From the IMG/VR virus record IMGVR_UViG_2681813429_000008, positions 1 through 50,324 of that record: a stretch of DNA of 50,324 bases; one strand, 5' to 3'. Below, in pieces: positions 4,265-50,324 of the stretch (within the stretch, counting starts at the first letter, position 1; each line of letters begins with the position of its first letter). The DNA is from a virus (taxonomy: Duplodnaviria; Heunggongvirae; Uroviricota; Caudoviricetes). The notes beneath the pieces are model-generated. The model did no database searches and was not told the origin of the DNA. It saw only the letters and a list, made by a program, of their open reading frames with translations. The position numbers were made by a program, and so were the translations under genes.

Positions 4265-4398
4265 ATTACTTTCCGTTTTGTTAGAATCAGAAAGATCTTA
4301 ATAATAAAAAGTATTTTCGTGAAGATATTGTCGATTGAGTTAATAACTCATTTACACCCAACAGTGCCATGATGGCAAAGATAAGGAGAGTTATTCAT

Positions 4399-4884
4399 AT
4401 GAAAAAATCACTGTTAATTATCCCGCTTCTGCTGGCAGGGTGTGCAAAGGTTAGCGACTATCAGGCAAGTTGCGAACAACGCTATCCAAAGCTTAGCGAT
4501 ATGGCTAATTGCCTTGATGCCAGTGTGAAGAACGACTCACGCATGGCATCAGCACCAACACCTAAGCTGTATGTCCTTGCTGCAAAGATGCTCGGGCAAA
4601 GTGTCGATGAAGGCAAGATAAGTGACGCACAGGCAAGACTTGAGCTTCAGAATCTTTATGTTCAATTACAAAGCCAAGAACAAGCCCAACAAATAGCGCA
4701 AAGCCAAGCATTCCAGCAGGCTTTATTGAATTATCAGGCTGTAAACACAATGCAAGCGATCGAGCAAAAAGCGAGACAGCCTGTTATAACTCAACCCTAT
4801 CCAACACGCGTTGACACTTACACAAACTGCAATTCAGGGTTTGGAAATACAGTCACATGCAACAGTAGCAGTAACATCAGATAA
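4399..4884 (+). CDS. Lipoprotein, Gln-rich (moron)
   Basis: Start chosen at MKKSLLIIPLLLAGC (lipobox LLAGC) preceded by AAGGAGAG. Q-rich central region. Oriented opposite to the late operon. Confidence 0.7.
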   Translation: MKKSLLIIPLLLAGCAKVSDYQASCEQRYPKLSDMANCLDASVKNDSRMASAPTPKLYVLAAKMLGQSVDEGKISDAQARLELQNLYVQLQSQEQAQQIAQSQAFQQALLNYQAVNTMQAIEQKARQPVITQPYPTRVDTYTNCNSGFGNTVTCNSSSNIR

Positions 4885-4974: not shown

Positions 4975-6972
4975 CTATTCTGACAACGCATCAGACTTAG
5001 CCCCCTGCGTCAGAGCGTTAATTGCCTTTTGTGCCTGCTGCATGGCTTTCTCAAACGCTGTTGATCCGCGTGGGGTGTTTGCCATTCGGAGCATTGCATT
5101 TCTGAATGGTTCGCTCTCATAGGCGCGAGTAAGAAGTCCGTAGCTTACTGCTGCGCCAGTTGTCGCCGGATTCATTGCCGTCCCATACCCAATAATGAAC
5201 GGGATAGTTTGCTGCCCTGTGGGTGTTGTTACTGCCGCTTTTGCAGCCTGCTGCGTGGATTGCAGATAGTTTTTTAATCCTTTCAGATAAGCAGCGTCCT
5301 GCCCCTTAAATGTGATGCCAGTCTGGTTTTGCAGGATGTTAAGCTGCCGAAGGAACTGGTCAGGGGATCCGCCAGATTTCTCCATCGCCTTTCCAATGAT
5401 GCCATTGCGCATTTGCGCCCTGCCAACACGACCAACTGAGTTATACAGCGTCTTAATTTCCGATTTGTTCTTGCTGAATAGCATGTTGTTGACAACTTCC
5501 GGCGTCAGGTCGCCTTTCATGAGAACATTCTTCAGCCTGGTATTCTTTAGTTTCGCCGCTTCGTCAGCGTAGACGGCATTGGCCTGCTGATATTTACGGA
5601 GAGTATCGTTGCCAAGATTCTGACCAATGGCACCATTGATATCGTCAGTCATTGCCTTGTAAACGCGCTGAATGGCAGCATCGGAACGGTTTGGTAACAC
5701 TGGGCGCTCACCCTTCACGTCCATTCTGAACTGGCTGCGCAGGTCGCTTAATTGCTTCAAATCCAGATTTACCGGACCATCAGGACCAGCATTGCGAACA
5801 AGCTCATCACGATATGACTGAAGTTTTGAAATTGTCTCGTTATCAGCTACCTTACCAAGCTTCTGCAGATTAGATATCTCAGTATCAATCTGCTGAATTG
5901 CTCGCGCAGGCTGAATGTTTACTCCAGCCATAGCATTCTGAACCTGCTCCAGTCGATTACCGGCGGCACGACGAATTCCTGATGTTTTCGCTTTAAGGCT
6001 GTCAATAACAACCGCTGGATCATACTCACCAAATTTATCAGCAAATCTCTGCACCAACTGGCTTCTCGCTTCCTGTTGCGTTGCTCTCATTCCGCTTGTG
6101 CCAGCCAGAGGGATATTTTCTGCTGTAGTCTGCGCCATTTTTCCGACGCGGGAAGTTGGTTGTAACAGGTCTGTGGTGTGCAGAGGAACTCCTTCACGCT
6201 CTGCAAATCTGATAGCCTGCTGCGCTTCTGGCGCAATAGAACCACGAACGCCACGATAAGCAGCACCTAATCCACGTCCGGCAGCGTTAATAGCACCGCC
6301 AGCCAGCACACCAACACCTAAATCGGTGGCGAGTGCTTCCGCATCATCTTTCGCACTATTTGCAGCAAGTGATCCAACTGCGTTTTCTGCGAGAAGGCGA
6401 GTTGCCCCCTGAGCAATTCGACCAGCAAGTGTTGGTGCCTGTGTTGCCGCTCTCTCAACGCCAGCAGGAGTGAGGTAAGGCAATGCTTCAGCAAACACCC
6501 TGCCCTCTGTCGTTTGTGGAGTCAGCGCGCCTTGCTGAAGGCCAAAGTCATGCTCTAATCCCTGCGTTGTTACTCGTGGCGCTGGTTGATATGTACCATC
6601 GCCAATGCCGAGTTTACCGCCAGCCCATGCAGCCGCACTTGTTACAGCATCGGCAACTGATGCAGGTATGTTTGCCACGTTCACGCCAGCCTGCACCAGT
6701 CCGCGACCAGTCTCTTTTACTGCTTCGCCAAGATCAGACATAAGTCCACTTTGCTGTGGTTGTTGCTGTGCTACTGGTTGCTGTGTCTCCACTTGCTGCA
6801 CAGATGGCAATGGATAGGCAGCATAGAAAGCTTGCTTAGCCTGCTCTGCATTTTCTCCGGCTTGCGGGGCCACGACTTCATTGAAGTATTGCTCCTGAGC
6901 CTGCGCTTTTTGTTCTGGTGCTAACGCCTGGTACTGTGGAGAGGCGATAACATCTTTCCATGCTTTAGCCAT
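4975..6972 (-). CDS. Ejection (injection) protein, P22 gp16-like
   Basis: 665 aa. Position and size match P22 gene 16. Last gene of the gp7-gp20-gp16 ejection protein block. Confidence 0.7.
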   Translation of the reverse strand: MAKAWKDVIASPQYQALAPEQKAQAQEQYFNEVVAPQAGENAEQAKQAFYAAYPLPSVQQVETQQPVAQQQPQQSGLMSDLGEAVKETGRGLVQAGVNVANIPASVADAVTSAAAWAGGKLGIGDGTYQPAPRVTTQGLEHDFGLQQGALTPQTTEGRVFAEALPYLTPAGVERAATQAPTLAGRIAQGATRLLAENAVGSLAANSAKDDAEALATDLGVGVLAGGAINAAGRGLGAAYRGVRGSIAPEAQQAIRFAEREGVPLHTTDLLQPTSRVGKMAQTTAENIPLAGTSGMRATQQEARSQLVQRFADKFGEYDPAVVIDSLKAKTSGIRRAAGNRLEQVQNAMAGVNIQPARAIQQIDTEISNLQKLGKVADNETISKLQSYRDELVRNAGPDGPVNLDLKQLSDLRSQFRMDVKGERPVLPNRSDAAIQRVYKAMTDDINGAIGQNLGNDTLRKYQQANAVYADEAAKLKNTRLKNVLMKGDLTPEVVNNMLFSKNKSEIKTLYNSVGRVGRAQMRNGIIGKAMEKSGGSPDQFLRQLNILQNQTGITFKGQDAAYLKGLKNYLQSTQQAAKAAVTTPTGQQTIPFIIGYGTAMNPATTGAAVSYGLLTRAYESEPFRNAMLRMANTPRGSTAFEKAMQQAQKAINALTQGAKSDALSE

Positions 6973-21749: not shown

Positions 21750-21825
21750 TGGTGCTGGTTAACGGACTTGAACCGCTACCCATTCGCTTACAAGGCGACT
21801 GCTCTACCATTGGAGCTAAACCAGC
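21750..21825 (-). tRNA. tRNA with anticodon UGU (Thr-like)
   Basis: Hand-folded 76 nt cloverleaf: 7/7 bp acceptor stem (GCTGGTT/AACCAGC), D-arm GCTC/GAGC, anticodon loop CTTGTAA, T-arm with TTCAAGT loop, encoded 3' ACCA. Confidence 0.6.
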
Positions 21826-21830
21826 ATATT

Positions 21831-21905
21831 TGGCGGGACAGCGTGGACTCGAACCACGATAAGAAGGTTAACAGCCTTCCGTAATGACCTTTATACGACT
21901 GACCC
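21831..21905 (-). tRNA. tRNA-like sequence, anticodon GUU (Asn-like), degenerate
   Basis: 75 nt. Good anticodon arm (GAAGG-CTGTTAA-CCTTC) and T-arm (CGTGG-TTCGAGT-CCACG) and 3' GCCA, but acceptor stem has a T-T mismatch and D-stem only 3 bp. Confidence 0.4.
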
Positions 21906-39370: not shown

Positions 39371-39501
39371 TTTATTTATTCATATATGAAAACAATGTAA
39401 CCAATATTCGAATTGAAGAACTGAAAGAACACCAAGCCGCCTGATGGCGGTTTTTTATTGCCTGATTTGCAGGTTCGATTCCCTATTCGGAGATAGCACT
39501 C

Positions 39502-39774: not shown

Positions 39775-39790
39775 TCTGCAGGGGACACCA
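39775..39790 (+). other. att core: copy of a tRNA-Arg (argW-like) 3' end, junction between prophage and satellite
   Basis: TCTGCAGGGGACACCA ends in an aminoacyl acceptor 3' end and matches the last ~15 nt of E. coli argW as recalled. Lies between xis and the second integrase, about 160 bp upstream of its start. Confidence 0.55.
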
Positions 39791-39950
39791 TGAACACTTC
39801 TCACTAAGTTCAATTAATTCCATAACTCACTGTTTTAACTGATATCATCTCCTTATACTCGTCCAGCAAAGTACCATTATTTCTAATGGAATCTATACAT
39901 CTTTGCGTATAACATTGTGTATAACTGAGTTCGATCTTTTTTCTATACAC

Positions 39951-41126
39951 ATGCTGCTATCTGACATCCAAATAAAAAGAGCAAAACCGAAGGACAAACC
40001 CTATACGCTTAACGATGGTATGGGGCTATCACTCCTGATCGACACAGCGGGCAGTAAAGGCTGGCGTTTTCGCTATCGCTTTGCAGGTAAGCCTAAGATG
40101 ATTTCCTTTGGCGTATATGGCGATGTGTCGTTGGCACAGGCACGTACCAAACGTGATGAAGCGCGTTCGATGTTAGCCAACGGGATAAACCCAAGTGAAG
40201 CCAGAAAAGCAGATAAGATTGCTTTGCAGTTCGCGCATGAGAACAGCTTTGAGTCTGTGGCCAGAGAATGGCACTCATCGAAAAAAGCCACCTGGTCAGA
40301 GGGTTATGCAAAAGAGGTTCTCAATTGTATGGAAAAGGATATTTTTCCTTTTATCGGCCAGCGCCCAATTGAGCAGATTGAACCATTAGAACTGCTAACC
40401 GTCCTGCAAAAAATAGAGAAAAGAGGTGCGCTAGAGCAAACCAGTAAGATCCGCCGCCGCTGTGGTGAAGTGCTTCGTTATGCTGTTGCCACTGGTAGAG
40501 CAAAGTATAATTTTGCACCCGATTTAGCTATCGCACTCAACAAACCTAAAACCCAACACTTCCCGTTCCTGACTGAAAGCGAGTTGCCCGAGTTCGTTAA
40601 TGCTCTGGATAACTATCAGGGCAGTTTAGTTACCAAATACGCCACGCAGCTGTTGATGCTAACAGGCGTGCGAACAATTGAACTACGTGCAGCGGAATGG
40701 GCTGAGTTTGATTTAGATAATGCCTTATGGGAGATCCCCAAAGAACGGATGAAGAAACGCCGCCCCCATCTGGTTCCGTTATCAACTCAGGCGATCAATA
40801 TCCTGAAAAAGCTGCAAGAAATAACAGGGAATTACAGCCTCGTTTTCCCTGGCCGGAATGACGTCAGTAAACCAATGAGCGAAGCCAGCATCAACAAAGT
40901 GATAAAACTACTGGGTTATCACGGTCGGTTAACGGGTCACGGTTTCAGGCATACCATGAGCACCATCTTGCATGAGCATGGGTTTGAAAGTGCCTGGATT
41001 GAAATGCAGCTTGCGCATGTTGATAAGAACTCTATTCGAGGTACTTACAATCATGCGCAATATATTAAAGATCGACAAGTAATGATGGAATGGTACGCTA
41101 GCTTATTAAATACGACCTGCTATTAA
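39951..41126 (+). CDS. int: Tyrosine integrase, P4 family (second copy)
   Basis: Start chosen at ATG MLLSDIQIKRAKPKDKPYTLNDG. Shares the RRCGEV.RYA..TGRAKYN.APDLA and HGFRHT motifs with the first integrase. Confidence 0.9.
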   Translation: MLLSDIQIKRAKPKDKPYTLNDGMGLSLLIDTAGSKGWRFRYRFAGKPKMISFGVYGDVSLAQARTKRDEARSMLANGINPSEARKADKIALQFAHENSFESVAREWHSSKKATWSEGYAKEVLNCMEKDIFPFIGQRPIEQIEPLELLTVLQKIEKRGALEQTSKIRRRCGEVLRYAVATGRAKYNFAPDLAIALNKPKTQHFPFLTESELPEFVNALDNYQGSLVTKYATQLLMLTGVRTIELRAAEWAEFDLDNALWEIPKERMKKRRPHLVPLSTQAINILKKLQEITGNYSLVFPGRNDVSKPMSEASINKVIKLLGYHGRLTGHGFRHTMSTILHEHGFESAWIEMQLAHVDKNSIRGTYNHAQYIKDRQVMMEWYASLLNTTCY

Positions 41127-42056
41127 ATCCAGCATGAAACAAATATGGTGAGTAATTTGATACTGTTTGTTTTTTGGCAACCCAGGGAAATGCCTTACAG
41201 TTGGTTGACTATTGTAATAATAATAGTTAAGACCAATGTTGCTGCCAAACTGGGTTGGATGTTGGGGAACAAGATTTGTAATTTGATCTGAAACATCTAA
41301 AAATTTTGCAGTAACATTTGAACTTCCTCGTTGCGTGTTGCTTGATACAAAATGACGAATCCAAACTGTATTCGCTTGTAAATTCTTGAACACCAAATGT
41401 GCGGCAACAGCAGAAGGTTGACCACCTCCAAGATCTAGTACCTGGCCAGTAATTGTATAATCGCCAAATCCTAAGTAATTTTGTCCCACGAATTGATGTG
41501 CGTGCGTGAAAAGTTCCGGCCCATTATAATCAGCATTTTTTGCTAACTTTCTAAAGTTATCGCTAATAATAATTAACTTCGACAAAGGAAGAAGAGCGCA
41601 CTGATTAGGAAGCATTTTATTATTTAAAACAACATGATAACTAATCAATTGATTTGTCGCCAACAACTGAATATCAGAGTTGGATAATGATGGATTATCA
41701 TATAGAAGTGCAACTCGTCTATTTAAGTTAGCATTCAACCAATTATTAATATCATTAATCGTTGTATTGGGCTGAATAAGATATCCAGAGATGATATTAT
41801 TTTTATTTGTTAATACACTTGATAAATTTTGATTTAAAGTTAAGACGTTATTGTGTGAAGAAAAATCTTCCTGATAAGGATTAAGGATAACAATTATGTC
41901 AGAATTCCAAACATTTAAACATGTTAATAAATTTCTCGTATTGACGTTAATTGGTTCTAAAATTGGTAGCAGACCATTTAGGCTAACTCCCTTCGCAACG
42001 AGGTCCCTAAGGCATAATAACTCTGTACTTCTCGCATACAAATATGGGCTATACAT
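41106..42056 (-). CDS. Hypothetical protein, AT-rich cargo gene B (downstream gene of a two-gene cassette)
   Basis: 316 aa, Asn/Leu-rich, coding GC far below the surrounding DNA. Its 3' end overlaps the integrase 3' end by ~21 nt. No recognised domain. Confidence 0.6.
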   Translation of the reverse strand: MYSPYLYARSTELLCLRDLVAKGVSLNGLLPILEPINVNTRNLLTCLNVWNSDIIVILNPYQEDFSSHNNVLTLNQNLSSVLTNKNNIISGYLIQPNTTINDINNWLNANLNRRVALLYDNPSLSNSDIQLLATNQLISYHVVLNNKMLPNQCALLPLSKLIIISDNFRKLAKNADYNGPELFTHAHQFVGQNYLGFGDYTITGQVLDLGGGQPSAVAAHLVFKNLQANTVWIRHFVSSNTQRGSSNVTAKFLDVSDQITNLVPQHPTQFGSNIGLNYYYYNSQPTVRHFPGLPKNKQYQITHHICFMLDLIAGRI

Positions 42057-42077
42057 AACTTACAACTCCTGAGGATA

Positions 42078-42959
42078 TCAACAAATTTTAATTTTTACAT
42101 CCATCAAATTCATGATGAATTCTTTTTGCTTTCTTGATAATGGTGTTGCATAACCTAAAACACGTAAACATGCTGGAAGAGAATAAATATAATCCAAAAA
42201 AACTTTATCGTTACATCTTTTTTTCATAGCAGAGATAAAGTATTTATTTGCTATGTTTAATGGCATCTGCATGAATATCTCTTTACAATATTCATAAACC
42301 AATCCGTTAGGCATATTTATTTTAGTTGAAGTGTAATCTTCTATTATAGCTAAGAACTCTTCCTTTCTAAGAACTGAAAACAAGCTGTCACTTTTAATAT
42401 AATCAATATTTGAATCTGCCTCCTTAATGACACTCAATTGATCTTTTTTATTCAAAACCATAACTCCCACTCTGGGGAGATTTAAAGCACAATATTTACT
42501 TGCATACTCTGGATGTGTAACTATATACACTTTATCAAAAACATCCAAATAATCAGGGGCTTGAGTAATCAACCTTTTTGGTGAATCATACTCTGTCTTA
42601 ATCTCGTAAGCTGTAGACGTACCATTAAACACCGCAACATCCACTATAGAGTTTTTAATTGGTAACTCTATGGACGACGAACTTGTTTTTGGGCTGTGCT
42701 TACCGAATATTATTTTATTGACAAGTGCTGTCTTATAAACATATTCATTTCTATAATTCAGACGCAAAAAATCATATAATGATGTAAATAAATCCCTTAG
42801 TGAAATCTCATGTTCATTATTATCATTGTTTGAAAACAGTGTTTCATAGCAGTAAGAATCAAAACTCCCAAATAAATCCGAAATATCCTTACCTTTTGCT
42901 AAGGATGAAAAAATGGGGCGACGGAAAAATTTAGCATATTCCTTTTTATTATGACTCAT
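42078..42959 (-). CDS. Hypothetical protein, AT-rich cargo gene A; possible PD-(D/E)xK nuclease-like motif
   Basis: 293 aa. Motif IVDVAVFNGTSTAYEIKTEYD has the hydrophobic-D ... E-x-K spacing of restriction-endonuclease-like folds. 21 nt upstream of gene B. Confidence 0.6.
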   Translation of the reverse strand: MSHNKKEYAKFFRRPIFSSLAKGKDISDLFGSFDSYCYETLFSNNDNNEHEISLRDLFTSLYDFLRLNYRNEYVYKTALVNKIIFGKHSPKTSSSSIELPIKNSIVDVAVFNGTSTAYEIKTEYDSPKRLITQAPDYLDVFDKVYIVTHPEYASKYCALNLPRVGVMVLNKKDQLSVIKEADSNIDYIKSDSLFSVLRKEEFLAIIEDYTSTKINMPNGLVYEYCKEIFMQMPLNIANKYFISAMKKRCNDKVFLDYIYSLPACLRVLGYATPLSRKQKEFIMNLMDVKIKIC

Positions 42960-43638
42960 TACTCATACTCTATAAACATCATGCAATTTGATAAGTTATG
43001 ACGAATTCTCACCATCCAGTTACTACCTGTACATACTAATCAAAAAAAACGAGTACGCAAGATACGAAAGTACTTTTCTTGTTCACCAGTTAGCTTACCT
43101 TGATCCTCACCAGCGACTGGAAGATAGGTAGCAGTATATGTGGAAACCTTCCCCTAGCTAGGTCTACAAACGTAGTTTGGGCATTTAGGCTCCACGATTC
43201 ACGGTTTGACACGGCCTGATATCTGCACATTCGTTTTGATATGCAGCAATCGTGAAAAAGGAAAATATACGCTCGACAGACCAAAACGGCACTACACCGC
43301 ACCCGCCTGCGGTTTTCATATCACTAAAAATTTTCAGCCTGGATTTTTTACAAACGATACCGCCAGTCCGTGCCAGTCCTCGAGATGTACTGCGATACAG
43401 GAACTGAAAAGAATGAAAAGAAATTCATTTTTTTTCAGTTTTACTGTCCGTCGAATCTATGGCCTGAATACGCAACTCTATGATATTAAATGGATAATTA
43501 ATTTTAGGTGTGTGATTTTATGAAGGTTTGTGAAACATGAAGAAGATAACCAGTTGAAAAATAATAATTTTATGACCGTATAAACTGAAATCCTGTGTTC
43601 AGGTTCCGGGAACAGATCGGCCATTCCCGACGCATACT

Positions 43639-43911
43639 TTACCCATTCTTTTGCGCAGCCAGCAGCAACTTTAAAGCCTTTTCCCGTTCCTCGGGTGGAA
43701 TTGCATCAATCAGCTCTTTAACCCTTCCCTGCCCGTTCAGCGCGCTTGGACTAACGGAATGGGAGAAAGCAACATTCATCACAAACGAGTGACCGCACTC
43801 CACATTAGAGCAATAGCAGTACACATCGTACAGTTGTGGGTGTTTCCTGTTTGTTTTACCTATCCGTGCTACTGCCTGACATGTGGGGCAGTACATTCTC
43901 ATCATCTTCAT
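43639..43911 (-). CDS. ogr: Ogr/Delta-family zinc-finger late-gene activator
   Basis: 90 aa with CPTC...C.C...C.H zinc-finger pattern (MRMYCPTCQAVARIGKTNRKHPQLYDVYCYCSNVECGHSF) characteristic of P2 Ogr / P4 Delta. Confidence 0.85.
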   Translation of the reverse strand: MKMMRMYCPTCQAVARIGKTNRKHPQLYDVYCYCSNVECGHSFVMNVAFSHSVSPSALNGQGRVKELIDAIPPEEREKALKLLLAAQKNG

Positions 43912-43979
43912 CGTTCTGTGCCCTATACTGTTGCCCGCCAGAAGAAGGGATTTGGATCCCTACCTCTTGTTCTGAACGT

Positions 43980-44170
43980 GTAACACTGGTAACACGTGTA
44001 ACGCTATTGATTTAAAAGGATTTAATCTGTTACCAGTTAGCAAAATCAAGAGGTAACGCGTGGTAACACACCATTTTTTGTTACCTCTGTTACCAGTCAG
44101 TATTTTTGACTGGTAACACTGAAGAACCGCATCAGTAACGGGTGTTACCTCTGTTACCAGTGTTACCTCA
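43980..44170. repeat. Iteron array (GGTAACAC / GTGTTACC heptamer-octamers, about 12 copies): putative satellite origin
   Basis: Repeated GGTAAC(A/G)C and complementary GTTACC motifs in both orientations between ogr and the primase gene. Resembles the P4 ori/crr octamer TGTTCACC as recalled. Confidence 0.7.
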
Positions 44171-44193
44171 TAAAAATAAGACTCACGCGATAA

Positions 44194-46881
44194 TCACTCA
44201 GGTTCAGCGCTTCCCAGTACCTGTGTATTGAACTGGTACACACGTTTAAGCCCTATTTCTGGCAGGCGAATGCTGTTTTGCGTCCGGCCATCTTCACCGG
44301 GTTTCAGCCAGCCCGCGTCCACACACAACCTGGCCACCTTACGCGAGTCAAATCCCTTACAGATCTCCTTCCAGCCTGACGGGAGAACGTAGAACGTCAC
44401 AACCGGCTCTGTCACGTTGTCTCCTTTATCGACTTTTCTGAATCCCATCATTGAAACAGGCCGGTTCCTGTCGTCATTCCAGTCAGCAAACCGACTGAAC
44501 TGATTACGCGTCATGAAGTCCCGAACCTGTTCAAGTGCCGCTTTATCTTCCTGATTAGCTGTATGGCCCCGGTCAGCCATCCATGCAGCCAGACAGCTTT
44601 GAGCGGCACGAAAGGCCTCTCCCTCCGGCCATCCTGTGATGCCCGCTTTTGTGGCCAGCTCCCCGGCCATCGCAACCAGAGCAAAACGGGTAACAGCCCG
44701 GCCAACCTGATTCCCGGCATTTTCCGGCGTCAGCCTTCGGGTATACTCTTTCAATAAGGCTTTCGCCTGACTGGTCAGTTCCGGCAGATCAGCGGTCAGG
44801 CAATACAGCCAGTCGCGGAATGGTGCACCATGATAATGCGCTACGTGCTGCTCAAGATGCTCAGCCAGGGTTTTCCCGCTACTGAAGCCATGAAGTTCTT
44901 CAAACACGCCATACTTGCCCGAATCGCTTGGGATCTGGATCATTCTGACCTCAACCCCGGCATACGTACGTTCCCCGGCGCTTGCCGCATGCTCTACCAG
45001 TGACAGTTCCCCGGTAGACAGAAACAACAGATTCCAGCGGTTGGTTTCCCTTACCGAACCATCTGTTCTGGCTCTGGCTTTGCCCTGCCCGTTAGCCAGC
45101 ATATAAGCGATATTTCCCGCCTCCCTGCCGTCAACCTCCCGGATTTCATCCAGCATCAGCGTGGCATCATTGCGGCGGCTCGCCGTTCCTTCTAAGGCAT
45201 TCCCCGTCGCCCGCCACGTATGCCAGAAATCTGTTCCACCACATACTGATGCAGCCACTTTCATCGTCGTGGTTTTACCGTCTGTGGATTCCCCTTTGAG
45301 GTGATAACCTCCACCGCCGATACCAACCAGTTTCAGAAGGGGGGCAGCAAATGCCAGACTCACCGCAAAGGCAAGACGGGCATTCTTTATGCAATAACGG
45401 CCTATATTTTCACGCCAGCCCTCTGATGTGCCGCTGACACGAAAATCACGCCCCTGCACACTCGATGTTTGTAAGATGACTGACTGGGCTTCGCGCCCTA
45501 TCACTTCATCCTGGAGAACGTAAACCCCGCCGTGCCAGCCAGTTTTATTCACACAGGTTACTTTTCTGTCCGGTTTACACAGCGAGATATATTCCATCAG
45601 GAATGCTCTGGCCATGCCGTTAATGTTGATGTAAGAAAGCCCGTTAACCAGCAGAACGCGGCGCAGTTCTTCCCCGCTACCGCCCAGCATCTCCATCGGC
45701 ATTGCCCATTTACGGCTGTTTCCGTTGGTATCTTCCCATTCCAGCAAACGCCCGTAATTACTTCCATCAGCATCACTGGTGATTGCCGTCACCCGCAACG
45801 GACTGCAAATTTTGATATTACGTATCTCTGTATCACCATCAGACTTATTAACCAGCTTGTCGTACCACAAATATTCTTTTGTCAGCCGGAACCCTTCTGG
45901 TAAACGGGTCTGCCCTTTGCCATGCAGCGTCATTTCTTCACGAAAGGCATCTCTCGCCCGTTCTTTCCCCACTTCCTGCCGATAATCATCCCAGTCAGCC
46001 TTATGGCGTACCGGAGGGAGCGTTACCCAGCCATCCACCGCTTTGGCGGCTTTCTCTGCCTGAATACGCCCGGTGTTTTCTTTGCCGTCAGCCAGATCAT
46101 TATCTCCGGCCAGAATGATCCGGGTTTCCGGCCAGCGTTTTCGGATCTGCTCCGTCACCTTCAGTAAATTGGTGGCAGCGACAGCCGCCACGATCCATCC
46201 TTCAGTCAGCAGACTGACGGTAAGCGCCGTGGCAAAACCCTCAGTGATAATCACCTGTTCAGGTGTTTCAGCGGGTATATCGGTCAGGGCAATGAATGCG
46301 CCAGACAGCTGGCTACCGGGCAGCAGACTTTTATCCCCGTCAGGATTGATAAGCTGGCCACCAGTAATATTCCCGGAAATATCCGTCAAAGGCAGCAGTA
46401 ATGAACCGGTGGAAAATGTTATTCCGGCCAGATTCAAAGGCTGTGACAGCAAGGGAAGTGAATACCCGTGTAAGCTCTTATTTGTCAGATAGACCGGCTC
46501 ACCATTGCAGGACTGCTGTCTGAGTCTGGTATATCGCTCCGCGCCCGCTTCTTTTCCTGCGGCCTTTTTCCTGGCTGGCAATGCGGGCTTCTCCTGTATT
46601 TCTGGTAATGCAAGCGCCTCAGATACCATCCCGGCGACTTCTTTTATCTTTCTTCCTGTCACCAGACGAACCAGATCAAGACCATCGCCATGACCGCACT
46701 GATTACAAAACCACGTCCCTCGCCCCGCTTTATCGTCCAGTCGAAAACGATCTTTTCCACCACAGGCAGGGCAAGCCCCATGATGTCCTGCGGACGGTAC
46801 TTTAATACCTAATGCTGACAGGATATAAGGCCAGCGCCCAATTGCAGCTCCGGAAATCGTGGATACAGACGGTGTTTTCAC
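44194..46881 (-). CDS. P4 alpha-type primase-helicase
   Basis: 895 aa. N-terminal zinc-binding primase region (CPACGG...CNQCGHGDGLDLV), central Toprim-like region, C-terminal P-loop NTPase (KGESTDGKTT). Confidence 0.85.
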   Translation of the reverse strand: MKTPSVSTISGAAIGRWPYILSALGIKVPSAGHHGACPACGGKDRFRLDDKAGRGTWFCNQCGHGDGLDLVRLVTGRKIKEVAGMVSEALALPEIQEKPALPARKKAAGKEAGAERYTRLRQQSCNGEPVYLTNKSLHGYSLPLLSQPLNLAGITFSTGSLLLPLTDISGNITGGQLINPDGDKSLLPGSQLSGAFIALTDIPAETPEQVIITEGFATALTVSLLTEGWIVAAVAATNLLKVTEQIRKRWPETRIILAGDNDLADGKENTGRIQAEKAAKAVDGWVTLPPVRHKADWDDYRQEVGKERARDAFREEMTLHGKGQTRLPEGFRLTKEYLWYDKLVNKSDGDTEIRNIKICSPLRVTAITSDADGSNYGRLLEWEDTNGNSRKWAMPMEMLGGSGEELRRVLLVNGLSYININGMARAFLMEYISLCKPDRKVTCVNKTGWHGGVYVLQDEVIGREAQSVILQTSSVQGRDFRVSGTSEGWRENIGRYCIKNARLAFAVSLAFAAPLLKLVGIGGGGYHLKGESTDGKTTTMKVAASVCGGTDFWHTWRATGNALEGTASRRNDATLMLDEIREVDGREAGNIAYMLANGQGKARARTDGSVRETNRWNLLFLSTGELSLVEHAASAGERTYAGVEVRMIQIPSDSGKYGVFEELHGFSSGKTLAEHLEQHVAHYHGAPFRDWLYCLTADLPELTSQAKALLKEYTRRLTPENAGNQVGRAVTRFALVAMAGELATKAGITGWPEGEAFRAAQSCLAAWMADRGHTANQEDKAALEQVRDFMTRNQFSRFADWNDDRNRPVSMMGFRKVDKGDNVTEPVVTFYVLPSGWKEICKGFDSRKVARLCVDAGWLKPGEDGRTQNSIRLPEIGLKRVYQFNTQVLGSAEPE

Positions 46882-47288
46882 AGCAGCACCTCCTGACCTT
46901 CCGGCTTCACAAATTCAAAACCTTCGGGTAGTTCGCCATCAGGTGCTCCGAAAATAATATCCCGGTAAACCTCACGCATCTCTGTGACACCAAAAACTGA
47001 CAGGCGAATATTTTCTGACATAAAGCCTGGTTTAAGCATTTTTTCCAGTTTCTCTGCGGCCAGTATGCAACCAGCATCAGCCCCAAACTCATTCACCCAC
47101 GGCATTTCAATATGGTAAATAATATTACTCACCACTTTTTCGTGGGAGAGTTCTATTCGTTCGCCATCTTCAATATAAACAGGTTCATTATGAACACGCA
47201 CCATTAAGGAAATGAATGCATCAGCAATGTAGTAGCGTAAGACTGCTGTTCGTAAAGCATGCGCCTTTAAATTTTGATTATTATTCAT
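46878..47288 (-). CDS. Hypothetical satellite protein
   Basis: 136 aa ORF overlapping the primase start by 4 nt. Confidence 0.5.
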   Translation of the reverse strand: MNNNQNLKAHALRTAVLRYYIADAFISLMVRVHNEPVYIEDGERIELSHEKVVSNIIYHIEMPWVNEFGADAGCILAAEKLEKMLKPGFMSENIRLSVFGVTEMREVYRDIIFGAPDGELPEGFEFVKPEGQEVLL

Positions 47289-47517
47289 CGCGCATCACTC
47301 CCTTAATTGTGCTGGTTTCCTTAACAACGCCATCCAGTTGTTCGGCAATACAGGCCACTAAAGCCGCAGCGCCTTCCGCTGAAACAGTTCTCGCTCCATT
47401 CACTGTGGGCACGGACAAGACCTCTGCAAGAAACTCACTGGCCAGTGCCGCCCGTAACAGACGACTCTCCCCCTGTTCACTCAATATGCAGCCTTGCTTA
47501 AAATTCATGGATTTCAT
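47281..47517 (-). CDS. Hypothetical satellite protein
   Basis: 78 aa ORF, translationally coupled to its neighbours. Confidence 0.45.
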   Translation of the reverse strand: MKSMNFKQGCILSEQGESRLLRAALASEFLAEVLSVPTVNGARTVSAEGAAALVACIAEQLDGVVKETSTIKGVMRDE

Positions 47518-47717
47518 GCAACCACCTCCCCGGCTCTTTTCACAGGGATACGGGCAGCAAAGCTCAGGATAAATTCAGTGGCAAGTTTAAGGCGTGCAGC
47601 ATGCTCGCATTCTGCGATTACACGCACAGGGCGTGGACGGGCATCACGGTCTGTACGGCGGACAGCCAGAAAGACAAAGGTAAATTCAGGGTGAGATAAA
47701 GCAGGGACTGTAGCCAT
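47514..47717 (-). CDS. Hypothetical small protein
   Basis: Only the last 67 codons of the 196-codon track ORF look genuine: internal ATG (MATVPALSHPEF...) preceded by AAGGAGG at ideal spacing. Confidence 0.45.
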   Translation of the reverse strand: MATVPALSHPEFTFVFLAVRRTDRDARPRPVRVIAECEHAARLKLATEFILSFAARIPVKRAGEVVA

Positions 47718-48149
47718 AATGGCAACCTCCTTCAGATAGCGGGTAACGCTACCACCGGAGTTCCTACGCTCATGGGTGGTAGCCCAGACGGGGGTAGGAA
47801 TACCGGCTCTGAAGGATACCGGCCAGCCCGAAAGCTGCCCCGCCTGGACTACCATAATTCTGATGATGTGGCGTAAAAAATAAAAAAATACAATCAGCCA
47901 CCACACCATAAATTTTAGGTGAGTCAAAGCTGCGACACAAAAAAACACGCCTAGCGCGTGTAGTATCGCCTTCAGATAACACGGGTTCCTACGCCCGGCT
48001 GCCGATTTTGCGGCAACCTTTAAACTATATCCCGCGCATTCCTGGTGAGGCAAGAAATTTATAACCGAAAACTGATCATTGCCTGGATTAATTAACGCTG
48101 GCATGCTTAAGCCTCTGCTTAAAAATAGTTCTTCATTTTTCCTGATGCT

Positions 48150-48182
48150 GTAAACGAGACCCGCCTCTGAGCGGGTCTTTCT
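48150..48182. terminator. Intrinsic terminator (GACCCGC-TCTGA-GCGGGTC)
   Basis: Perfect 7-bp stem with T-rich flank, immediately downstream of the capsid-homolog gene stop. Confidence 0.55.
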
Positions 48183-48191
48183 GTCGCTAAG

Positions 48192-49196
48192 TCAATCCGC
48201 AAACGTCAGGGTGCACTCATCAACAGCCGCGTACAGTTCAGGTTCACCGAGTGCATAACCTTCATTGCGCAGGTAGGAATGCACGTATTCACTGCTTTCA
48301 TCATCAAACTCAGCACGAAACCAGCGTGTTATCGCCTGAGTGTAAATATGCAGATTATCCAGCGTCGTTACTGCCAGACGCTTACCCGGCATAAACGGGG
48401 GAATAAACGCAAAGCGGCCAGCAACAGAACTTGTAGCCATCTGTGCCGCATTCACATCAGACGGGCGGTCTGCGGCATTAAATAACTTCAGGCGTTGATG
48501 TGCTGCCAGCTCTGCCCCAACCAGTACAACCAGACGAGGATCTTCACGAAACTGCTCAGCAATAAGCTCTGTAATCAGATGGTTGGCCAGAGCATCAATA
48601 TTTTTCCAGGTGCCAGTCTCTCCCAGAGTGACAGGCTCAGAGATGATTTGCTTTCCGTTCCCGTAGGCTTTCGCCAGTGCATGCCAGCCAATATTGACAT
48701 CCTCGCCTTTTTTATTGATTTCCGGGTTTGTAGTATTTGCAATCGACACACCGTTGAAACCGACCCGCAGCATGTCCAGCGCATATGCCTGGGCAAAAAA
48801 GCTCTCAACCGTTTTCTCAAACTCATCCGGCACGCCGGTATGGTAAATATGAGACATATCGGAATAGCTGATCCGGGCGCAGGTATCCGTCTCTGTCAGA
48901 AAGAACTCCGTACCATTGATTGCCATTTTTTTGTGGAAACGGCCACCATCCACACGTCCGGTATACAGTTCACTGGCACCAATATTGACGGCATTACCTG
49001 ACACGGCGTTAACATCACGTAGGGTAATATTTTTAATAAGCCACCCGGATTCCAGAATTGAGGTACGCAGTATATTTTCAGTAGGTTCGCTTAATGCAAA
49101 GCGTCTGTTTGATTCTTCCTGATAGTTAGTGCCAGTGACGAATTTATTATGATAACGACGTGCTGCGTCCGGCCTTTCAGTTTTGAAGGCATACAT
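48192..49196 (-). CDS. P2 GpN-family major capsid protein homolog
   Basis: 334 aa, colinear with P2 GpN as recalled (e.g. LRVGFNGV..., EDPRLVVLVGAELAA..., LDNLHIY...). No database search was run. Confidence 0.6.
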   Translation of the reverse strand: MYAFKTERPDAARRYHNKFVTGTNYQEESNRRFALSEPTENILRTSILESGWLIKNITLRDVNAVSGNAVNIGASELYTGRVDGGRFHKKMAINGTEFFLTETDTCARISYSDMSHIYHTGVPDEFEKTVESFFAQAYALDMLRVGFNGVSIANTTNPEINKKGEDVNIGWHALAKAYGNGKQIISEPVTLGETGTWKNIDALANHLITELIAEQFREDPRLVVLVGAELAAHQRLKLFNAADRPSDVNAAQMATSSVAGRFAFIPPFMPGKRLAVTTLDNLHIYTQAITRWFRAEFDDESSEYVHSYLRNEGYALGEPELYAAVDECTLTFAD

Positions 49197-49218
49197 AGTT
49201 TTTCACCTTTTTAAGTAT

Positions 49219-50079
49219 TTAAGAAAAGATTTTATTTTTGTACTCAGTAACCAGATTGTATTTCATTACATGCTCAACATAATCCCGGTCACTTACGACT
49301 GAACGTAATACATAATTATCTGCTCGATAGTACTCCCTGTAAGCCATAGCTCTTGCCATTCCACCGTTATTTAATACATAACGATCAGTTGGAACGCTAC
49401 AACGACTAATAATTTCACTCACGGAATCAGATAAAGACTTGAGTGCATCAGTAATAAATTTAATATCACGGACAACGTCACTGTCATTAAATACAGAAAT
49501 AAAATCAGCAGGGATCTGGCCGGATTGAGGAAATATATTCAGTAAACGCTTATCGATTCCCTTCCCAATGTAGTTTCCTTCATCGGCCAGTACTCCCGGC
49601 AAAAGCTTGATCGTGCTCAATCGACTATGTTGTTCATTCAACCGGGAAACAGCCAGATGGTAATACCGTTCAGCATCCGCTCGTTCAGCATGCCCCATTT
49701 TATTCGTTTTGGCTTCAGCAATGCTACTGACGCCGTTTTTTGAGAATGTGCTTTTCCATGCAACTTCCGCATTTGTCACTTCACGCTGCCGGAAAGATAA
49801 CTCTTCCTCTTCCTGACGACACAACTGGGCATAACGGCTCAGGAGCAGGTTGATCTCATTCGCCACAGTTTCCGTATCAGGTACTGTTAACCCCGTAAGT
49901 GAATACAGCTTTTCACCTTTAGCTCGCAGCTTATTCAGTGAATATATTTCAATAATACGCACAATACAGGCCGTGTCGCTATGAGTCTCTTTAAATGATC
50001 TTACTTTGTAACTATCTAACACCGACACATGTTCGTTCTTAATTGATGCCAATTTCTTCTTAAAAACATTGTCAACCAT
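49219..50079 (-). CDS. Hypothetical protein upstream of the capsid homolog
   Basis: 286 aa, moderately AT-rich. Size matches P2 GpO but no sequence similarity was recognised. Confidence 0.5.
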   Translation of the reverse strand: MVDNVFKKKLASIKNEHVSVLDSYKVRSFKETHSDTACIVRIIEIYSLNKLRAKGEKLYSLTGLTVPDTETVANEINLLLSRYAQLCRQEEEELSFRQREVTNAEVAWKSTFSKNGVSSIAEAKTNKMGHAERADAERYYHLAVSRLNEQHSRLSTIKLLPGVLADEGNYIGKGIDKRLLNIFPQSGQIPADFISVFNDSDVVRDIKFITDALKSLSDSVSEIISRCSVPTDRYVLNNGGMARAMAYREYYRADNYVLRSVVSDRDYVEHVMKYNLVTEYKNKIFS

Positions 50080-50096
50080 ATATTTGCCACCTCAAT

Positions 50097-50324
50097 TTAG
50101 GAGTTTAATTTTCTATTGAGAATATTCTTCTCTATCCATTCATTAACTTCATGCTCCACCCATGCAACAGAACGAGAACCGATAGAAACTTGGTTCGGAA
50201 ATTCATCATTCTTTATCTTTAGATAAATTGTTGACTTGGGTAAGCCAGTCAAATTAATCACTTCTGATATTCTCAGAAGTCTATATCTTTTTTGGGGTGC
50301 GTTTTCCCGAGGCAATAAGCTCAT
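50097..50324 (-). CDS. alpA: AlpA-family transcriptional regulator
   Basis: 75 aa; YRLLRISEVINLTGLPKSTIYLKIKNDEFP...VAWVEHEVNEWI is the canonical AlpA winged helix. ORF starts at the window edge, so the true start may lie beyond. Confidence 0.8.
   Translation of the reverse strand: MSLLPRENAPQKRYRLLRISEVINLTGLPKSTIYLKIKNDEFPNQVSIGSRSVAWVEHEVNEWIEKNILNRKLNS

What the first reader, a model, noticed from the sequence alone, without database searches (positions are those of the whole stretch)
43912..44193. Dense iteron array between ogr and the primase gene: putative satellite replication origin
About 12 copies of GGTAAC(A/G)C and its complement occur in both orientations within ~190 bp, immediately upstream of the alpha-type primase-helicase gene. 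This resembles the octamer repeats of the P4 ori/crr bound by alpha protein.
Basis: seen in the sequence. Interest (0 to 1): 0.5.

Follow-up and report, generated by a model that had tools for sequence, protein, structure and literature searches.

The report
Iteron replication origin of a phage satellite
A 190-bp cluster of twelve short repeats just after the primase-helicase gene of an 11-kb phage satellite in E. coli is very probably the satellite's own replication origin, a known type of element not yet described for this satellite family.

Summary
The repeat array is real and far above chance: 13 GTAAC cores in 189 bp (43979-44167), against at most 4 per 200 bp elsewhere. Twelve of them are conserved in relatives.

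One point of the finding is wrong. The primase-helicase gene (44194-46881) is on the minus strand, so the array lies 3' of its stop codon, not upstream of it.

In relatives from Enterobacterales to Betaproteobacteria the same array follows the same gene, with or without ogr. Most show the same dyad layout, 3-1-2 | 2-1-3. The repeat sequence itself changes lineage by lineage, and all 12 copies change together. That points to binding by a co-evolving protein.

The protein is only partly alpha-like. Its N-terminal primase domain is 38% identical to P4 alpha. The rest is a DUF927/MCM-like helicase with a C-terminal winged helix, closest to the staphylococcal island (SaPI) Rep and Cch proteins. Those proteins bind iterons placed immediately 3' of rep.

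The element has a single array, so it does not follow P4's two-site ori plus crr scheme.

Verdict: a SaPI/PICI-type satellite origin, whose repeat sequence and position resemble P4 crr. It is a new member of a known kind. Replication itself was not tested.

The parts
43979..44003 (+). Distal outer triplet of iterons (TGTAACA, GGTAACA, TGTAACG; 9-bp spacing). It mirrors the triplet at 44143-44167.
   Evidence: conserved position in relatives
44003..44028 (.). Least stable A/T-rich spacer (gctattgatttaaaaggatttaatct). A conserved 'tttAAATCAA' motif is present in enterobacterial relatives. Candidate unwinding site.
   Evidence: 20-bp duplex stability minimum of -20.1 kcal/mol; conservation
44028..44034 (-). 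Single inverted iteron (TGTTACC), the mirror of 44112-44118.
44052..44068 (+). Inner iteron pair (GGTAACG, GGTAACA; 10-bp spacing).
44069..44078 (.). Centre of the dyad symmetry of the whole array (about 44073). Each half holds 3+1+2 = 6 iterons.
   Evidence: mirror sums of the positions: 27+/209-, 36+/200-, 45+/191-, 76-/160+, 100+/136-, 109+/126-
44079..44094 (-). Inner iteron pair in the opposite orientation (TGTTACC x2; 9-bp spacing).
44112..44118 (+). Single iteron (GGTAACA). Together with 44088-44094 it forms a 12-bp-arm palindrome.
   Evidence: (I10)
44134..44140 (+). Degenerate 13th copy (AGTAACG). It is not conserved in relatives and is probably not functional.
44143..44167 (-). Proximal outer triplet of iterons (TGTTACC x3; 9-bp spacing), starting 27 nt after the primase stop codon.
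44168..44189 (-). Conserved A/T-rich box (CGCGTGAGTCTTATTTTTATGA in the primase sense) between the stop codon and the first iteron. It is the second stability minimum.
44194..46881 (-). Fused primase-helicase-initiator, 895 aa: Zn ribbon, then Toprim (P4-alpha-like, residues 1-317), then a DUF927 MCM-like helicase, then a C-terminal winged helix.
44215..44490 (-). Coding region of the predicted C-terminal winged-helix domain (residues ~798-889), the inferred iteron reader.
44266..44289 (-). Codons 865-872 (GRTQNSIR) at the start of the wing hairpin. These residues differ between near-identical proteins whose iterons differ.
43933..43952 (-). Conserved box aatcccTTCTTCTGGCGGGC between the array and ogr. 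An inverted copy lies at 44248-44267, inside the primase 3' end. Function unknown; it possibly belongs to the origin.
   Evidence: (I6)
44248..44267 (+). Inverted copy of the CTGGCDGGC box, antisense to primase codons 872-877 (RLPEIG).
43639..43911 (-). Ogr/Delta-type zinc-finger activator gene downstream of the array. It is not part of the origin, because the array persists in relatives that lack it.

Best explanation
The array is the vegetative replication origin of an ~11-kb P4-like/PICI-type phage satellite integrated at the tRNA-Arg (argW) site. It starts at window position 39776 and runs beyond the window end.

The gene just upstream, in transcription terms, encodes a single polypeptide that is primase, helicase and initiator. 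Its C-terminal winged-helix domain recognises the 12 GGTAACA iterons. The iterons form two mirror-image half-sites of six (3-1-2 | 2-1-3) around position 44073.

By analogy with SaPI Rep proteins, one hexamer assembles on each half-site. The A/T-rich spacers are melted without help from DnaA; the weakest are 44003-44028 and 44168-44184. The MCM-like rings load themselves. The N-terminal Toprim primase then lays down the first primers, and the host polymerase extends them.

Shown here:
- The repeats exist and are far above chance.
- The array is linked to the 3' end of this gene in diverse relatives.
- The geometry is conserved while the repeat sequence changes in concert.
- The protein has the domain make-up stated above and a predicted winged-helix fold.
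- The element holds a single cluster.
- DnaA and IHF consensus sites are absent.

Inferred: binding of this protein to the repeats, loading of two hexamers, the melting site, and replication itself.
For: (1) Statistics: 13 cores in 189 bp, against at most 4 per 200 bp elsewhere and at most 6 in shuffles.

(2) In 28 relatives with 36-92% protein identity, an array of ~10-13 copies lies within 300 bp after the stop codon. In most the layout is the same and the offsets are nearly identical. Eight of them have no ogr or capsid gene downstream.

(3) Concerted change of the repeat: GGTAACA, GGTGTAACA, GGGTAACA, GGATACA, GGTGGAACA, GGTGACA and GGGGATACA occur in different lineages. Between L021 and L009, whose proteins are 94% identical, all 12 copies switch TA to AT in both orientations.

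(5) Published work shows that SaPI Reps bind 6-12 iterons immediately 3' of rep through a C-terminal winged helix. Opposed iteron sets flank an A/T-rich region, and two hexamers are proposed to load (PMC9371898). Gram-negative PICIs have the same layout, and the EcCICFT073 pri-ori segment replicates a plasmid (PMC6092414). I saw its iterons directly 3' of pri.

(6) Three near-identical protein pairs with different iterons all differ within residues 865-872, at the wing. Position 870 differs in 5 of 6 discordant close pairs and in 0 of 5 concordant ones.

(7) A circular 12.2-kb E. coli episome (NZ_CP148430.1) carries a TOPRIM+DUF927 protein followed by 3 direct iterons, an A/T-rich spacer and 3 inverted iterons.

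(8) There are no DnaA boxes or IHF sites in 43900-44200. This fits a self-sufficient initiator.
Against: - No experiment was possible, so binding, melting and replication are all inferred.
- The residue-iteron association is only suggestive. Two positions in the variable N-terminal linker (94 and 198) score as well as position 870, and the motif was picked after seeing the data.
- There is no single long central A/T-rich block like the AT-rich region at the centre of SaPI origins. Instead there are several short A/T spacers, and the weakest is off-centre.
- No terminator separates the primase gene from the array. The origin is therefore probably transcribed, and this could also be regulatory.
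- The array sits upstream of ogr, so an added regulatory role is not excluded.
Confidence: 0.8

Rival explanations
1. The array is a crr-like cis-acting enhancer, as in P4. It binds the initiator and is needed in cis, but DNA synthesis starts at a separate origin elsewhere in the element.
For: The position is exactly that of P4 crr, directly 3' of the primase-helicase gene. The iteron is similar in sequence, adjacent copies are 9 bp apart, and the N-terminal primase domain is homologous to alpha.
Against: The complete ~11-kb element (L002 10177-21151) holds only this one cluster; no other 200-bp stretch has more than 2 cores. The helicase and DNA-binding part belongs to the SaPI Rep/Cch family, whose origins are single sites 3' of rep (PMC9371898). 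The layout is a dyad, not two 120-bp direct repeats.
Confidence: 0.07
2. The array is an operator or promoter region that controls ogr, or that ends transcription of the primase operon. It would be bound by a satellite or helper regulator rather than by the initiator.
For: It lies directly upstream of ogr. No sigma-70 promoter or intrinsic terminator is detectable. A TGT-N12-ACA dyad, the Ogr/Delta-type site as I recall it from the P2/P4 literature, overlaps the last iteron at about 43966-43983 on the minus strand.
Against: The array keeps its position and geometry in eight relatives that have no ogr downstream. The TGT-N12-ACA dyad is lost in L008-L010. Twelve sites in a strict two-fold layout are far more than an operator needs.
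Confidence: 0.05
3. The array mainly serves copy-number control, incompatibility or partition (handcuffing, or a centromere-like site) of the excised episome, rather than initiation.
For: Iterons in plasmids often have both roles (established knowledge of iteron plasmids; review PMC4980987). A related element exists as a circular episome.
Against: The element has no partition genes. The array is the only candidate origin. The homologous SaPI systems use such arrays for initiation.
Confidence: 0.05
4. The array is a chance or low-complexity repeat with no function.
For: None beyond the short length of the repeat unit.
Against: Enrichment is about 40-fold over background. Position is conserved, and the sequence changes in concert, across two bacterial classes.
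Confidence: 0.01

Closest known systems
SaPI / PICI replication origins (SaPIbov1, SaPI1, SaPI5 PriRep5; Gram-negative EcCICFT073)
   Same: - The origin lies immediately 3' of the rep or pri-rep ORF.
- It holds 6-12 short iterons in opposed sets with A/T-rich DNA between them.
- The initiator is a self-loading hexameric helicase whose C-terminal winged helix reads the iterons. Primase and Rep are fused, as in SaPI5.
- The DUF927 region matches 8tch and 5dgk by sequence and fold (PMC9371898; PMC6092414).
   Different: - The host is Gram-negative, and the backbone is P4-like: C4/CI RNA immunity, Ogr/Delta, AlpA.
- The primase domain is the P4-alpha Zn-ribbon/Toprim type.
- Twelve iterons form a strict 3-1-2 | 2-1-3 dyad rather than two simple blocks.
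- There are several short A/T spacers instead of one central block.
- The EcCICFT073 Pri protein is unrelated in sequence.
Phage P4 crr and ori (type I iterons bound by the alpha protein)
   Same: - crr lies directly 3' of the alpha gene.
- The iteron is GGTGAACA there and GGTAACA here. Variants GGTGTAACA and GGTGGAACA occur in relatives.
- Copies occur in both orientations, with adjacent copies about 9-10 bp apart.
- The N-terminal primase domain is 38% identical.
- The element is ~11 kb and has P4-type immunity RNA.
   Different: - P4 needs two distant sites, ori and crr; this element has one cluster.
- crr consists of two 120-bp direct repeats; this array is a dyad.
- The helicase and origin-binding domains are not detectably related to those of alpha.
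- No DNA similarity to P4 was found outside the immunity region, and none to the P4 cos site.
SCCmec Cch / Cch2 helicases
   Same: The same DUF927 MCM-like helicase family.
   Different: The role of Cch in replication and its binding site are, to my knowledge, less clearly tied to an iteron array. This was not examined here.
Iteron plasmids (RepA/TrfA/Pi type)
   Same: Repeated initiator-binding sites lie next to an A/T-rich unwinding element.
   Different: - In those plasmids the iterons are ~17-22 bp and mostly direct.
- Their initiators are not helicases.
- They need DnaA boxes and host DnaB/DnaC. No DnaA box is found here.

Membership tests
SaPI/PICI-type origin | The origin lies immediately 3' of the rep (pri-rep) open reading frame. 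| tested here: met
   The first iteron starts 27 nt after the stop codon. The same holds in 28 relatives.
SaPI/PICI-type origin | Six to twelve short iterons, with at least two on each side pointing in opposite directions around A/T-rich DNA. | tested here: met
   Twelve conserved 7-nt iterons; the outer triplets and inner pairs are mirrored about 44073. The A/T-rich spacers are short and the weakest is off-centre, so the 'one central AT block' detail is only partly met.
SaPI/PICI-type origin | The initiator is a Rep-type (DUF927/MCM-like or related) helicase with a C-terminal winged-helix domain. | tested here: met
SaPI/PICI-type origin | Rep binds its own iterons specifically. | tested here: inconclusive
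   Indirect evidence only: the iterons change in concert between lineages, and wing residues 865-872 differ in near-identical pairs with different iterons. A binding assay is needed.
SaPI/PICI-type origin | The pri-rep-ori segment drives autonomous replication. | not testable with these tools
   Supporting hint only: a related TOPRIM+DUF927 element is deposited as a circular 12.2-kb episome.
P4 ori/crr system | The initiator is P4 alpha: primase, plus an SF3 helicase, plus a C-terminal origin-binding domain (1KA8 type). | tested here: not met
   Only residues 1-317 align with alpha. Profile comparison of the C-terminal domain with the alpha origin-binding domain gives probability 0.2%.
P4 ori/crr system | Two cis sites, ori and crr, several kb apart, both carrying type I iterons. 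| tested here: not met
   There is a single cluster in the whole ~11-kb element.
P4 ori/crr system | The type I octamer TGTTCACC / GGTGAACA. | tested here: not met
   The consensus here is GGTAACA, one base shorter. It is similar but not the same.
P4 ori/crr system | crr lies directly 3' of the primase-helicase gene. | tested here: met
   In P4, crr is at 4291-4590 and the alpha stop at 4636. In the window, the array is at 43979-44167 and the stop at 44194.
P4-like satellite (backbone) | Integrase, AlpA/Vis, Ogr/Delta-type activator, CI/C4 RNA immunity, alpha-type primase, psu/sid, and a P2-type cos site. | tested here: inconclusive
   Present: integrase, AlpA-like HTH protein, Ogr/Delta, C4 and isrK RNAs, and the alpha-like primase domain. 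No psu or sid family was hit among the ten proteins scanned. No similarity to the P4 cos site was found. A P2-family capsid gene is present instead.
Iteron plasmid origin (DnaA-dependent) | DnaA boxes next to iterons of ~17-22 bp. | tested here: not met
   No DnaA box with up to 1 mismatch, and no IHF consensus site, in 43900-44200. The iterons are 7-10 nt.

The most novel reading that the evidence does not exclude
The origin may be a precisely built platform for two hexamers. Six iterons per half-site would match the six winged helices of one ring, in a 3-1-2 | 2-1-3 layout conserved from Enterobacterales to Betaproteobacteria. Its specificity would be re-set in nature by one or two substitutions in the wing (residues 866-870), together with a concerted change of all 12 sites.

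In addition, the array is bracketed by an inverted pair of a conserved box, CTGGCDGGC (43933-43952 and 44248-44267). This box is found around the iteron arrays of three other initiator families that share the P4-alpha Zn-ribbon/Toprim domain (as a flanking pair in two, distal copy only in one). It is absent from the close relatives examined that lack that domain. It could be the start signal for the first primers on each displaced strand.
Probability: 0.2. Interest if true: 0.6.

Novelty: new member of a known kind. Interest (0 to 1): 0.38.

Why it matters
This satellite is present in 450 of 5,426 complete E. coli genomes. Relatives occur across Enterobacterales, and they carry variable cargo next to the integrase.

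Knowing the origin and its cognate initiator defines a minimal, DnaA-independent replicon of about 3 kb. That replicon could be tested directly and used for satellite-based vectors.

The natural series of iteron variants, paired with nearly identical initiators, is a ready-made system for studying how origin specificity changes. It could also explain how co-resident satellites avoid replicon incompatibility.

The element further shows a P4-type primase domain joined to a helicase-initiator of the type known from staphylococcal islands. This links the P4-like and PICI satellite groups at the level of the replication module.

Tried and rejected
- DNA search of 43600-44400 against 50,697 phage records at 'distant' sensitivity: no match.
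- P4 cos junction and whole P4 genome against the element: only the immunity region aligns (71% over 423 nt); no cos similarity.
- Second iteron cluster (a P4-like ori): none in the window or in the complete element.
- Sigma-70 promoter or intrinsic terminator between primase and ogr: none on the relevant strand. A sigma-54 reading of the CTGGCGGGC box was rejected by hand because the GG/GC spacing does not fit.
- TGT-N12-ACA (Ogr/Delta-type) dyad overlapping the last iteron: present in the window, L003 and L005 but lost in L008-L010, so probably chance.
- CTGGCDGGC box as a target of the C4/CI immunity RNA: no complementarity.
- CTGGCDGGC box pair as a long-range RNA helix: the variable position does not covary.
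- DnaA, IHF and Fis-like consensus sites: none.
- 'Plasmid' OX345456.1, with a 99% identical gene: it is only a linear 7-kb draft contig, so it is not evidence of episomal life.
- Nitrosoglobus plasmid pTAO100: it also carries RepM, so it is uninformative.
- Literature searches for this origin or family (DUF927 + satellite; P4-like + iterons; PriRep + E. coli): no description found.

Full report
**The observation.**
The 282-bp intergenic stretch 43912-44193 holds a dense array of a short repeat in both orientations. The GTAAC/GTTAC core occurs 13 times between 43979 and 44167. No other 200-bp stretch of the 50-kb window has more than 4, and 200 shuffles of the window never gave more than 6. 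Against the window's own background (0.34 per 200 bp) the Poisson probability is about 1e-16. GGTAAC occurs 36 times in the window against 12.7 expected, and 10 of these lie here. The real consensus is A-N-N-GGTAACA. Adjacent same-sense copies are 9-10 bp apart.

**Gene layout.**
The large gene next to the array is on the minus strand (44194-46881, 895 aa). So is the Ogr/Delta zinc-finger gene (43639-43911). The array therefore starts 27 nt after the stop codon of the primase-helicase gene and lies upstream of ogr. It is not 'upstream of the primase gene' in the sense of transcription.

**The genetic element.**
- Window 39776-50324 is 100% identical to part of an island of about 10,975 bp in E. 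coli Ecol_AZ146. That island is bounded by 15-nt direct repeats of the 3' end of tRNA-Arg.
- Its genes are: integrase, an sce7725/sce7726 pair, ogr, the array, the primase-helicase, two small ORFs, an Ash/Icd-like region, a P2-family major capsid gene, a 286-aa ORF and an AlpA-like regulator.
- The Ash/Icd-like region contains a C4-type antisense RNA and an isrK-like RNA.
- This is a P4-sized satellite with P4-type immunity. The intergenic region is present in 450 of 5,426 complete E. coli genomes, mostly at 99% identity or more.
- In the window the satellite sits in tandem with a P22/Sf6/CUS-3-like prophage.

**The protein.**
- Residues 1-317 (Zn ribbon plus Toprim) are 38% identical to the primase domain of P4 alpha. 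Nothing else aligns with alpha.
- Residues 331-614 are a DUF927 domain (E 4e-91).
- By sequence this part matches the SaPI Rep structure 8tch and the SCCmec helicase Cch 5dgk. It also matches the NCBIfam Cch model.
- A profile comparison with the P4 alpha origin-binding domain (PDB 1KA8) finds no relationship.
- The protein is therefore a chimera: a P4-alpha-type primase fused to a SaPI-Rep-type helicase-initiator.

**Comparative evidence.**
A scan of one genome per species returned 58 loci.
- *Same place.* In the 28 relatives compared in detail (36-92% identity), an array of about 10-13 copies follows the stop codon.
- *Same layout.* In most, the offsets of the copies from the stop codon are nearly the same: in the window 27, 36, 45 (+); 76 (-); 100, 109 (+); 126, 136 (-); 160 (+); 191, 200, 209 (-). 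The layout is a two-fold dyad, 3-1-2 | 2-1-3. It holds even in the Accumulibacter relative at 36% identity, and only in part in the Paraburkholderia one.
- *Independent of ogr.* Eight relatives have no ogr or capsid gene, yet keep the array at the 3' end of the gene. The array therefore belongs to the primase-helicase gene, not to ogr.
- *Sequence varies by lineage.* The variants are GGTAACA, GGTGTAACA, GGGTAACA, GGATACA, GGTGGAACA, GGTGACA and GGGGATACA, plus one mixed array.
- *All copies change together.* Pectobacterium carotovorum and Brenneria populi have proteins 94% identical. Between them all 12 copies switch TA to AT in both orientations. This accounts for 24 of the 27 differences within the 84 iteron columns, while the flanking boxes and many spacer positions stay identical.

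Such concerted change is what is expected of sites read by one co-evolving protein.

**Which residues might read the repeat.**
- Three pairs of nearly identical proteins have different iterons: L017/L019 (22 differences), L010/L014 (33) and L008/L009 (55). All three pairs differ within residues 865-872, GRTQNSIR, which lie at the start of the wing hairpin in the model.
- Arg866 is found with every ctGGTAACA array. Lys866 is found with the GGTGTAACA, GGGTAACA and GGTGGAACA arrays.
- Position 870 differs in 5 of 6 close pairs with different iterons and in none of 5 close pairs with the same iteron.
- This is suggestive only. Two positions in the variable N-terminal linker score equally well, and the motif was chosen after inspection.

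**Mechanism by analogy.**
- SaPI Rep proteins are self-loading hexameric helicases. Their C-terminal winged helix binds 6-12 iterons lying immediately 3' of rep. Opposed iterons flank A/T-rich DNA, and one hexamer is proposed to load on each side without ATP (PMC9371898).
- Gram-negative PICIs have the same arrangement, and the EcCICFT073 pri-ori segment supports plasmid replication (PMC6092414).
- I confirmed that EcCICFT073 has GTCTACC-type repeats directly after pri, although its Pri protein is unrelated to the one here.
- A 12.2-kb circular E. coli episome carries an integrase, PerC, an Icd-like gene and a TOPRIM+DUF927 protein (33% identical). That gene is followed by three direct repeats, 40 bp of A/T-rich DNA and three inverted repeats.
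- In the window the least stable DNA is 44003-44028, and next 44168-44184.
- No DnaA box or IHF site is present.
- The 2 x 6 count fits two hexamers, but that is inference.

**Comparison with P4.**
- P4 crr lies directly 3' of alpha, and its type I iteron is GGTGAACA.
- P4 needs a second site, ori, 4.5 kb away. crr is two 120-bp direct repeats. Alpha's helicase and DNA-binding parts belong to another family.
- Here there is one cluster in the whole element and a dyad layout.
- The array thus works like a SaPI/PICI origin and merely looks like P4 crr.

**An unexplained extra.**
- A conserved box, CYTTHTTYCTGGCDGGC, follows the array at 43933-43952 on the minus strand. An inverted copy lies inside the 3' end of the gene at 44248-44267.
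- The distal copy is present in nearly all enterobacterial relatives, with or without ogr.
- The in-gene copy shows unusual codon conservation. Arg872 is CGC and Pro874 is CCA in all 15 diverse relatives compared, against a mean top-codon fraction of 0.59.
- The same inverted pair brackets the arrays of a P4-alpha-like element (L057) and of the circular episome L064. In L064 the in-gene copy encodes different amino acids.
- A single distal copy follows the GTGGGGG arrays of two members (L051, L053) of a 674-aa primase family.
- The box is absent from L033 and L034, which matched only the helicase part of the query, from the two betaproteobacterial relatives, from P4 and from EcCICFT073.
- A role as a priming or loading signal is possible but untested.

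**Verdict.**
The origin interpretation is supported at about 0.8. The P4 analogy is partial. This is a new, undescribed member of a known kind of element. I found no description in the searchable literature. Interest is moderate.

Noticed in passing
window 43933-43952 (-), 44248-44267 (+), ~46560-46579 (+): A conserved box, CYTTHTTYCTGGCDGGC, brackets the iteron array as an inverted pair. One copy lies inside the primase 3' coding region, where codon conservation is unusual. A third copy lies antisense at codons ~100-106. The pair recurs around the arrays of other initiator families that carry the P4-alpha-type primase domain (L057, L064; distal copy only in L051 and L053). It is absent from P4 and EcCICFT073. 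Function unknown.
   Followed up: partly
window 1-39775 (checked 15000-39900): A P22/Sf6/CUS-3-like prophage (97% identity to pieces of phages vB_EcoP-720R6, CUS-3 and Sf6) lies directly next to the satellite, so the two sit in tandem at the tRNA-Arg site. A 16-nt copy of the tRNA-Arg 3' segment is at 39467-39482, and the satellite's 15-nt att core CTGCAGGGGACACCA is at 39776-39790.
   Followed up: partly
window 47772-47859 (-), 47940-48030 (-): A C4-type antisense RNA (81 bits) and an isrK / c4-a1b1 target-like RNA lie inside the Ash/Icd-like ORF. This is P4-type RNA immunity. It is also the only region with DNA similarity to P4 (71% over 423 nt).
   Followed up: partly
window 41106-42959 (-): An sce7725/sce7726-family gene pair lies between the integrase and ogr, in the position of the variable cargo or defence hotspot of P4-like satellites. 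The second protein hits the PADLOC 'cll' model (P4 cII-like, E 1e-18); the first hits nothing in PADLOC.
   Followed up: partly
window 48192-49196 (-): An 11-kb satellite carries its own P2-family major capsid gene (Pfam E 1e-66), next to an uncharacterised 286-aa ORF (49219-50079). No psu or sid family was hit and no similarity to the P4 cos site was found. The helper phage and packaging route are unknown.
   Followed up: no
window ~43966-43983 (-): A TGT-N12-ACA dyad (the Ogr/Delta-type activator site as I recall it) overlaps the last iteron upstream of ogr. It is kept in L003 and L005 but lost in L008-L010, so it is probably chance.
   Followed up: yes
L064 (NZ_CP148430.1) 6514-6690: A deposited circular 12,152-bp E. 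coli 'plasmid' is really a PICI-like satellite: integrase, PerC, Icd-like gene and a TOPRIM+DUF927 protein. It has a simple origin of 3 direct iterons, an A/T-rich spacer and 3 inverted iterons. This hints that such elements can persist as episomes.
   Followed up: partly
L045-L056, 0-330 nt after the 674-aa primase genes: A different initiator family shares only the N-terminal primase domain with the window protein (49-53% identity). It also has an iteron array (GTGGGGGAA, 6-7 copies around an A/T-rich block) directly 3' of the gene.
   Followed up: no
window 21750-21905 (-): tRNA-Thr(TGT) and tRNA-Asn(GTT) genes lie side by side inside the prophage part of the window.
   Followed up: no
L008 8686-8960: The Pectobacterium polonicum array mixes three iteron variants (GGTTACA, GGTGACA, GGATACA), although its protein is 98% identical to that of L021, which has uniform GGTAACA. 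This could be a relaxed-specificity or transitional state.
   Followed up: partly
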